Source of the DNA: Escherichia coli
GTDB taxonomy: Bacteria > Pseudomonadota > Gammaproteobacteria > Enterobacterales > Enterobacteriaceae
Strand: one strand, 5' to 3'
Length of the DNA: 64,000 nucleotides
Assembly: GCF_003018115.1 (NCBI RefSeq)
Contig: NZ_CP027457.1
Numbering within the stretch: the first letter of the stretch is position 1; each line of letters opens with the position of its first letter. The notes beneath the pieces are model-generated. The model saw only the letters and a program-made list of their open reading frames with translations. It was not told the DNA's origin and did no database searches. Position numbers and translations under genes: made by a program. This document shows positions 50,580 through 51,023 of this stretch, piece after piece.

Positions 50580-51023
50580 GTGAACACAATACACCTGCGC
50601 TGTCTCTTCAGGATGAATCCCCTGGTCTGGTGCCTGCGGGCTGATGTTGCAGCCGAGCTAAGGTCACTTAGACGCTACTATCATTTATCCAATGGCATGG
50701 AATCGAAATCAGTCGATACCCGCAGTATATATCGTGAACTGGGTGCAACGCTGAGTTACAACATGCGTCTGGGGAACGGTATGGAAATTGAGCCGTGGCT
50801 GAAGGCGGCTGTGCGCAAAGAATTTGTCGATGATAACCGGGTGAAGGTGAATAATGACGGTAATTTCGTCAATGATTTGTCGGGCAGACGTGGAATATAC
50901 CAGGCAGGTATTAAAGCCTCATTCAGCAGTACGTTAAGCGGGTATCTCGGGGTGGGGTATAGCCATGGTGCTGGTGTGGAATCCCCGTGGAATGCGGTAG
51001 CTGGTGTGAACTGGTCGTTCTGA
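50580..51023 (+). pseudogene. ycgI: Autotransporter beta-barrel C-terminal remnant (ycgI-like pseudogene)
   Basis: 147-aa ORF whose C-terminal half looks like the end of an autotransporter barrel (...AGVNWSF); no signal peptide or passenger domain. Confidence 0.55.

What the first reader, a model, noticed from the sequence alone, without database searches (positions are those of the whole stretch)
50580..51023. Orphan autotransporter barrel fragment next to minE
The ORF encodes only the C-terminal end of an autotransporter beta-barrel (ending ...AGVNWSF) with no secretion signal or passenger, consistent with a decayed second autotransporter gene (ycgI-like). The AT-rich 50104..50580 stretch upstream probably holds the remains of its 5' part and/or small genes that I could not assign.
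Basis: partly seen in the sequence, partly recalled or inferred. Interest (0 to 1): 0.3.

Follow-up and report, generated by a model that had tools for sequence, protein, structure and literature searches.

The report
ycgI: deleted autotransporter gene remnant
This is the already-annotated E. coli pseudogene ycgI: the last 114 codons of a large YpjA/EhaD-type adhesin gene, left next to minE after a deletion removed everything from just upstream of its start codon to about 60% of the way through its membrane barrel.

Summary
The feature is ordinary and already known. ORF 50580-51023 (147 aa, GTG start) exists. Only residues 34-147 (50679-51023) derive from an autotransporter (PF03797 positions 152-254 of 255; TIGR01414 319-432 of 432).

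The window matches E. coli F9792 at 100%. K-12 annotates this feature as pseudogene ycgI (b4521), and PGAP calls it "missing N-terminus".

Some E. coli strains carry an intact YpjA/EhaD-like AIDA-repeat autotransporter at the same site between ymgJ and minE (1558 aa or 1138 aa). The window equals those alleles minus one block of 4362 or 3102 bp. The block runs from 29 nt upstream of the ATG to codon 1444 of the 1558-aa allele, with 1 bp of microhomology at 50679.

No 5' coding remains survive. The upstream stretch is the gene's old non-coding leader (50335-50678, paralogous to the ypjA upstream region) and carries the small ORFs ymgI and ymgJ. The first 33 codons of the ORF are leader read in frame.

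An AlphaFold model shows that only strands 8-12 of the 12-strand barrel remain.

The same junction is present in 4597 of 5426 complete E. coli genomes. In addition, 5 of 11 sampled copies carry frameshifts. It is a dead, decaying gene remnant.

The parts
50679..51023 (+). ycgI remnant: last 114 codons plus stop of a YpjA/EhaD-like type Va autotransporter. It covers the loop after strand 7 and barrel strands 8-12, including the C-terminal ...VNWSF motif.
   Evidence: Pfam and TIGR01414 hits. tblastn gives 97.4% identity to residues 1445-1558 of the full-length allele and 94.7% to K-12 YpjA residues 1413-1526. PGAP and K-12 pseudogene annotations. AF2 strand map.
50679..50680 (.). Deletion junction. 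Base 50679 (T) is the single base shared by both sides. Left of it the window matches L008 up to 5065 and L023 up to 7168. From 50679 rightward the right-hand alignment starts at L008 9427 and L023 10270, so 50680 corresponds to L008 9428.
   Evidence: blastn and sequence inspection. A junction-spanning 101-mer is found intact in 4597 of 5426 complete E. coli genomes.
50580..50678 (+). First 33 codons of the mechanical ORF. This is former 5' leader sequence that is open in the same frame as the gene. It is not autotransporter coding sequence.
   Evidence: In the intact allele and in K-12 ypjA the gene's frame is open for 44 codons upstream of the annotated ATG, and the deleted block is a multiple of 3. 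No Pfam hit, including no ESPR hit.
50335..50678 (+). Retained upstream (promoter/leader) region of the lost gene. It is paralogous to the region upstream of ypjA.
   Evidence: 88.8% identity over 356 nt to the K-12 ypjA upstream region, and contiguous with the gene in the L008 and L023 alleles. Promoter-like matches at 50318-50346 and 50444-50471 are consensus matches only.
50379..50564 (+). ymgJ, an annotated 61-aa ORF lying inside the retained leader. Its coding status is doubtful.
   Evidence: PGAP and K-12 annotation. The ORF has a stop at codon 12 in the L008 allele and upstream of both ypjA copies examined. It is frameshifted in ST131 and AZ159. No Pfam or NCBIfam hit.
50525..50644 (+). 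39-aa ORF that PGAP calls 'hypothetical protein' or 'ATPase'. It is probably not a gene.
   Evidence: Annotation. All 5 differences from the ypjA-upstream paralogue are non-synonymous, by reading the alignment.
50105..50278 (-). ymgI, an annotated 57-aa small ORF. It lies outside the segment duplicated with ypjA and is not part of the autotransporter.
   Evidence: Annotation. The duplication boundary is near 50325-50335.
51039..51063 (+). Former intrinsic terminator of the autotransporter gene (stem, UUCG loop, stem, T-tract). In this window the stem is weakened by two G-to-A changes.
   Evidence: Twelve-strain alignment: CTGCGC-TTCG-GCGCAG-TTTTCGTTT in K-12, O157 and L008, against CTGCAC-TTCG-GCACAG in the window. 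The terminator scan did not call it in the window.

Best explanation
The feature is the E. coli pseudogene ycgI. Its ancestor was a type Va (AIDA-I-type, YpjA/EhaD-like) autotransporter adhesin gene of 1100-1560 codons, located between ymgJ and minE. That gene and about 380 bp of its upstream region form a roughly 5-kb segmental paralogue of the ypjA locus beside ssrA. A single illegitimate deletion with 1 bp of microhomology removed the ribosome-binding site, start codon, signal peptide, whole passenger, linker helix and barrel strands 1-7. It fused the old 5' leader to the last 114 codons. The leader happens to be open in the gene's frame and the deleted length is a multiple of three, so a 147-codon ORF results. 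Its product, if made at all, would lack a signal peptide and hold only 5 of 12 strands, so it could not be exported or form a barrel. The remnant has no function and is decaying further through frameshifts. Shown here: homology, breakpoints, population frequency, frameshifts and strand map. Inferred: the direction of the event (deletion from an intact gene), its single origin, and the lack of function.
For: Identity and annotation: the window is 100% identical to E. coli F9792, and the feature is annotated as a pseudogene there and in K-12. Intact alleles exist at the same site: 1558 aa in Z0117EC0005 and 1138 aa in WP8-S18-ESBL-07. Collinear flanks with a single gap: window 49382-50679 and 50679-51500 match L008 3770-5065 and 9427-10243; window 46000-50679 and 50679-52000 match L023 2489-7168 and 10270-11584. 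No other fragment of the gene is found in any frame. The ypjA locus is 90% identical in DNA over 5082 columns and 88.6% in protein. The RBS and ATG lie in the deleted block. The same junction is present in 4597 of 5426 genomes; 422 keep the intact 5' end; 713 keep at least 80% of a query spanning the last ~780 bp of the gene plus its unique 3' flank. There is an independent IS1203-associated truncation in O157:H7. Four distinct 1-bp indels occur in 5 of 11 sampled deletion alleles, against none in 5 intact or paralogous copies. The AF2 model (pLDDT 88, pTM 0.83) shows a linker helix and 12 strands, with the breakpoint in the loop between strands 7 and 8.
Against: Base substitutions in the remnant do not look neutral. 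Among variants private to the deletion alleles there are 15 non-synonymous to 18 synonymous changes, against about 3.4:1 possible changes. This is the same ratio as in intact copies (8:9). The window's own copy keeps an uninterrupted frame. The old promoter region is retained, so transcription is possible. Expression was not tested, and the genome sample for the indel and substitution counts was small and not random.
Confidence: 0.93

Rival explanations
1. The 147-aa (or 136-aa, from ATG 50613) ORF is a functional small protein that has been kept because it does something, for example a cytoplasmic or BAM-interacting peptide carrying the C-terminal beta-signal.
For: The frame is intact in the window and in 6 of 11 sampled deletion alleles. 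The N:S ratio of 15:18 is lower than the neutral expectation. The upstream promoter-like region is retained. Gene callers repeatedly predict it.
Against: There is no signal peptide or RBS at a good distance: GGTGAG lies 2 nt from the GTG, and nothing usable precedes ATG 50613 (by inspection). Frameshifts occur in K-12, ST131, AZ159, GN05064 and OkiPb01688 at four different positions. The first 33 residues have no homologues other than translated leader. The N:S ratio is the same in intact copies, so it is not specific evidence of selection on the remnant.
Confidence: 0.03
2. The leader (344 bp) and the remnant (345 bp) persist as two homology arms. These arms would let the locus exchange sequence with ypjA or with incoming intact alleles, so the adhesin could be regained or serve as a donor or recipient in gene conversion. 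On this view the remnant is dead as a gene but consequential as a recombination substrate.
For: Both arms are 89-97% identical to the ypjA locus. Variant patterns are mosaic: the O157 remnant shares columns 176 and 189 with K-12 ypjA. Synonymous-rich variation matches that of intact copies. At least two different intact allele types sit at the min locus.
Against: No conversion tract was demonstrated. The intact min-locus alleles are only 84-96% identical to K-12 ypjA along the gene, so they are not recent copies of it. The pattern can also arise from ordinary allelic recombination between strains.
Confidence: 0.1
3. The fragment is a leftover of a tandem duplication of the neighbouring autotransporter ycgH (46716-49364).
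For: Another autotransporter gene lies on the same strand 1.3 kb upstream.
Against: tblastn of YcgH against 49700-51400 gives nothing better than E=2.3, while YpjA-type proteins give E below 1e-68. The closest other E. coli paralogue found is YejO-like at 52% identity.
Confidence: 0.01

Closest known systems
ycgI (b4521) pseudogene of E. coli K-12
   Same: Same locus between ymgJ and minE, same deletion junction and same 3' end. The K-12 copy is 96.8% identical over the 345 nt.
   Different: The K-12 copy has an extra 1-bp deletion (344 nt) that breaks the frame. The window's copy keeps the frame and has private changes, for example His to Tyr in ...SGYLGVGY.
YpjA/EhaD adhesin-like autotransporter (K-12 b2647), an AIDA-I-type, Group 4 biofilm-forming autotransporter (PMC9289746)
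   Same: The remnant is 94.7% identical to YpjA residues 1413-1526. The intact min-locus allele is 88.6% identical to YpjA over its full length. The upstream 356 nt are also paralogous.
   Different: Different chromosomal site: ypjA sits in the island next to ssrA. Here more than 90% of the gene is missing, so none of YpjA's adhesin or biofilm activity can be attributed to it.
Intact min-locus alleles ('AIDA repeat-containing protein' WP_250777696.1, 1558 aa; 'ypjA' WP_182915055.1, 1138 aa)
   Same: Same flanks on both sides, with 97.4% protein identity over the last 114 residues to the 1558-aa allele.
   Different: They retain the RBS, signal peptide, passenger, linker and strands 1-7. They occur in about 8% of complete E. 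coli genomes.
BrkA and Vag8 translocator domains of Bordetella (PDB 3qq2, 7akv)
   Same: These are the nearest solved 12-strand autotransporter barrels to the ancestral C-terminal domain, with E=1e-24 to 3e-28.
   Different: They are distant relatives. The window keeps only the part corresponding to roughly the last 40% of those barrels.

Membership tests
Type Va (classical) autotransporter | N-terminal Sec signal peptide | tested here: not met
   The signal peptide MNRTSRYYFRRSVLSLLISALIYAQPGEAA of the intact allele lies in the deleted block. The ORF's own N-terminus has no hydrophobic core (by inspection; no predictor was available).
Type Va (classical) autotransporter | Passenger domain (here AIDA-type beta-helix repeats) and autochaperone region | tested here: not met
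   There are no Pfam or NCBIfam passenger hits in the ORF. tblastn finds no passenger-derived sequence in 49700-51400.
Type Va (classical) autotransporter | Complete 12-strand beta-barrel with an internal linker helix (PF03797 / TIGR01414 full length) | tested here: not met
   Only model positions 152-254 of 255 (PF03797) and 319-432 of 432 (TIGR01414) are present. The AF2 map places the breakpoint after strand 7, leaving strands 8-12.
Type Va (classical) autotransporter | C-terminal beta-signal ending in an aromatic residue | tested here: met
   The ORF ends ...AGVNWSF, identical to the intact alleles and to YpjA.
YpjA/EhaD lineage (descent, not function) | High sequence identity to YpjA-type proteins, plus the shared upstream leader | tested here: met
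   94.7-97.4% identity over 114 aa. The leader is 88.8% identical to the ypjA upstream region.
ycgI pseudogene of E. coli | Position between ymgJ and minE, with the same truncation point | tested here: met
   K-12 and F9792 annotations and alignment. The junction is shared by 4597 genomes.

The most novel reading that the evidence does not exclude
The dead gene's two surviving ends (leader 50335-50678 and barrel end 50679-51023) may act as a standing pair of homology arms. These arms would allow exchange with ypjA or with intact alleles from other strains, so the min-locus adhesin could be lost and regained over evolutionary time. This would also explain why substitutions in the remnant look as synonymous-biased as in live copies despite frequent frameshifts.
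Probability: 0.08. Interest if true: 0.35.

Novelty: already known. Interest (0 to 1): 0.08.

Why it matters
It matters little for biology, because this is a textbook pseudogene that the reference annotation already flags. There are three practical points.

First, the fragment should not be counted as an outer-membrane protein. One review modelled YcgI and obtained a "deformed or broken barrel" (PMC7383365), which is explained by only 5 of 12 strands being present.

Second, about 8% of complete E. coli genomes carry an intact YpjA-like gene at this site, which PGAP sometimes names ypjA. Presence/absence typing of "ypjA" in adhesin surveys can therefore mix two loci.

Third, the annotated small ORFs ymgJ and the 39-aa "ATPase/hypothetical" ORF lie in a former 5' leader and show no sign of coding conservation.

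Tried and rejected
- **Rfam scan of 49300-51800:** no match at E up to 1.
- **RNA folding of the conserved leader:** in its intact context (L008 4900-5110) the fold is no more stable than shuffles, z = +1.48, so no structured 5' UTR element is supported.
- **Extended signal peptide (ESPR) idea:** I asked whether the in-frame leader (MNPLVWCLWADVAAELRS...) is a degenerate ESPR and the true start lies upstream. A Pfam scan at E up to 10 gave no ESPR hit, and the annotated ATG has a GAGGA 8 nt upstream while the upstream ATG has none. Rejected.
- **Origin from ycgH:** rejected.
- **Repeats at the breakpoints or segment ends:** only a chance-level 12-mer was found, and microhomology at the junction is 1 bp.
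- **GTDB species-representative scan:** a conserved 24-mer of the leader returned only two contigs, both E. coli contamination (a Terrisporobacter assembly and a Clostridiales MAG), so nothing was learned about other species.
- **Substitution-based test of relaxed selection:** inconclusive.
- **Literature:** the Hemm et al. small-protein paper could not be opened under the PMC id I recalled from memory. A paper on long autotransporter signal sequences held nothing on ypjA in its main text.

Full report
**What is there**

The mechanical ORF 50580-51023 (+ strand, GTG start, 147 aa, ending AGVNWSF) exists as described. Its residues 34-125 match the Pfam autotransporter beta-domain PF03797 (E=3.9e-12), but only model positions 152-254 of 255. 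NCBIfam TIGR01414 matches residues 34-147 to positions 319-432 of 432. The neighbourhood is:

- ycgH (46716-49364, an intact 882-aa autotransporter)
- ymgD, ymgG and ymgI on the minus strand
- ymgJ (50379-50564, + strand)
- a 39-aa ORF (50525-50644)
- the remnant
- minE, minD and minC on the minus strand

**Identity**

Window 50100-51400 is 100% identical to E. coli F9792 and four other strains, and is found in essentially all E. coli. In F9792, PGAP annotates 50679-51023 as [quoted passage not shown]. In K-12 MG1655 the homologous 344 nt are the pseudogene ycgI, b4521. The literature also treats it as a pseudogene (PMC6206680).

**What it was**

A protein search turned up longer E. coli fragments that are 97-99% identical over the shared part but extend further into the barrel. 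One of them lies at a contig end next to minE.

In complete genomes an intact gene occupies the same site. Strain Z0117EC0005 has a 1558-aa "AIDA repeat-containing protein" there (L008 5095-9771). Strain WP8-S18-ESBL-07 has a 1138-aa protein that PGAP names YpjA/EhaD (L023 7198-10614).

The window is collinear with both alleles except for a single gap:

| Window segment | L008 coordinates | L023 coordinates |
|---|---|---|
| left flank, ending at 50679 | 3770-5065 (from window 49382) | 2489-7168 (from window 46000) |
| right flank, starting at 50679 | 9427-10243 (to window 51500) | 10270-11584 (to window 52000) |

The missing block is 4362 bp relative to L008 or 3102 bp relative to L023. Both are multiples of three, and the end points are the same. 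The block starts 29 nt upstream of the ATG, so it removes the GAGGA ribosome-binding site and the start codon. It ends after codon 1444 of the 1558-aa allele. Only one base (T at 50679) is shared by the two sides.

tblastn of the full-length protein and of K-12 YpjA against 49700-51400 finds only residues 1445-1558 (97.4% identity) and 1413-1526 (94.7%) respectively, at 50679-51020. Nothing else appears in any frame. YcgH gives no significant match.

**What the upstream stretch is**

It is not the remains of the 5' coding part. Window 50335-50678 is the former upstream leader of the gene. It is contiguous with the gene in the intact alleles. It is also 88.8% identical to the region upstream of ypjA, both in K-12 and in SMS-3-5.

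The whole unit (L008 4714-9780, about 5.07 kb) is a segmental paralogue of the ypjA locus beside ssrA. DNA identity is 90% and protein identity 88.6%.

In the intact allele and in ypjA, the gene's reading frame happens to be open for 44 codons upstream of the ATG. Together with the deletion length being a multiple of three, this is why the remnant appears as a 147-codon ORF. Its first 33 codons are leader, not barrel.

ymgJ lies inside this leader. Its frame has a stop at codon 12 in the L008 allele and upstream of both ypjA copies examined. It is frameshifted in two B2-type strains. For the 39-aa ORF, all five differences from the paralogue are non-synonymous (read). Neither looks like a conserved coding sequence.

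The leader has no Rfam match, no unusual RNA stability and no ESPR signature.

**What is left of the protein**

I built an AlphaFold model of the last 328 residues of the intact allele, using an alignment of 22 homologues drawn from a representative search. The model has pLDDT 88 and pTM 0.83. It shows the pore helix (residues 28-58) followed by 12 strands.

The breakpoint falls at residue 215, in the loop between strand 7 (197-210) and strand 8 (228-241). The remnant therefore encodes strands 8-12 only. The nearest solved barrels are Bordetella Vag8 and BrkA. A product with no signal peptide and 5 of 12 strands cannot reach or close a barrel in the outer membrane. That conclusion is inference from established autotransporter biology.

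**Population picture (5426 complete E. coli genomes)**

| State | Genomes |
|---|---|
| 101-mer spanning the junction found intact | 4597 (85%) |
| Min-locus flank joined to the intact 5' end of the gene | 422 (8%) |
| At least 80% of a query spanning the last ~780 bp of the gene plus the unique 3' flank | 713 |

The third group includes O157:H7, where a different truncation leaves about 251 codons next to an IS1203 copy. The locus has therefore been inactivated at least twice independently, and the common deletion most likely arose once.

Among 11 deletion alleles taken across the ranking, five carry 1-bp frameshifts at four different positions: K-12; ST131, AZ159 and GN05064 sharing one; ST131 and AZ159 sharing a second; and OkiPb01688. 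None of five intact or paralogous copies does. The sample is small and not random.

**A loose end**

Base substitutions do not show the expected neutral excess of non-synonymous changes. Among variants private to the deletion alleles the ratio is 15 non-synonymous to 18 synonymous, and in intact copies it is 8:9. The possible changes stand at about 3.4:1.

The simplest reading is that variation is imported from intact alleles or from ypjA by recombination. Some columns are shared in a mosaic way. This was not tested at scale. It leaves a small probability that the arms matter as recombination substrates.

**Verdict**

The feature is the known pseudogene ycgI. It is a deletion remnant of a YpjA/EhaD-like adhesin gene, is non-functional and is still decaying. 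Interest is low.

Noticed in passing
window 46716-49364: ycgH is an intact 882-aa autotransporter here (AC_1 autochaperone plus full beta-domain; PGAP 'ECIAI39_1904 family'). It is a pseudogene in K-12 (b4491) and in WP8-S18-ESBL-07 (internal stop), and is absent altogether from Z0117EC0005. This is a second decay and presence/absence polymorphism 1.3 kb from ycgI.
   Followed up: partly
window 50379-50564 (ymgJ) and 50525-50644 (39-aa ORF): Both annotated small ORFs sit in the former 5' leader of the autotransporter. ymgJ is interrupted by a stop at codon 12 in the paralogous leaders and frameshifted in some strains. The 39-aa ORF differs from its paralogue only by non-synonymous changes. PGAP's occasional name 'ATPase' is a legacy label.
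   Followed up: partly
window 51039-51063: The plus-strand UUCG-loop terminator just after the remnant is perfect in K-12, O157 and the intact allele. In this window it carries two stem-breaking G-to-A changes, and it is also altered in the ST131-type strains.
   Followed up: partly
window 51102-51370 (minus strand): Two terminator-like hairpins follow minE: one directly after its stop (51370-51343) and a second about 220 nt further on (51119-51102). The second is invariant in 11 of the 12 strains aligned (one stem-base change in GN05064). The stretch between them has G-run indels and no conserved ORF. UTI89_C1358 was once annotated in this interval. It could be a long minE 3' UTR or a small transcript.
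   Followed up: partly
L011 (E. coli O157:H7 SS17) 5338-7345: O157:H7 has an independent truncation of the same gene. An IS1203 copy and an ompT-containing island abut a 753-nt remnant of about 251 codons.
   Followed up: partly
L004-L007 (Logan assemblies), genes at about 5980-8573: The nearest other paralogue of the remnant (52% identity) is a frameshifted YejO-like autotransporter between narP/ccm and yejM. It is split into three called genes in these assemblies.
   Followed up: no
L021 and L022: Contigs in a Terrisporobacter mayombei assembly (539 bp, low coverage) and in an 'uncultured Clostridiales' MAG carry E. coli ypjA-upstream and ycgI-junction sequence at 96-99% identity. This is most likely E. 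coli contamination of those assemblies.
   Followed up: partly
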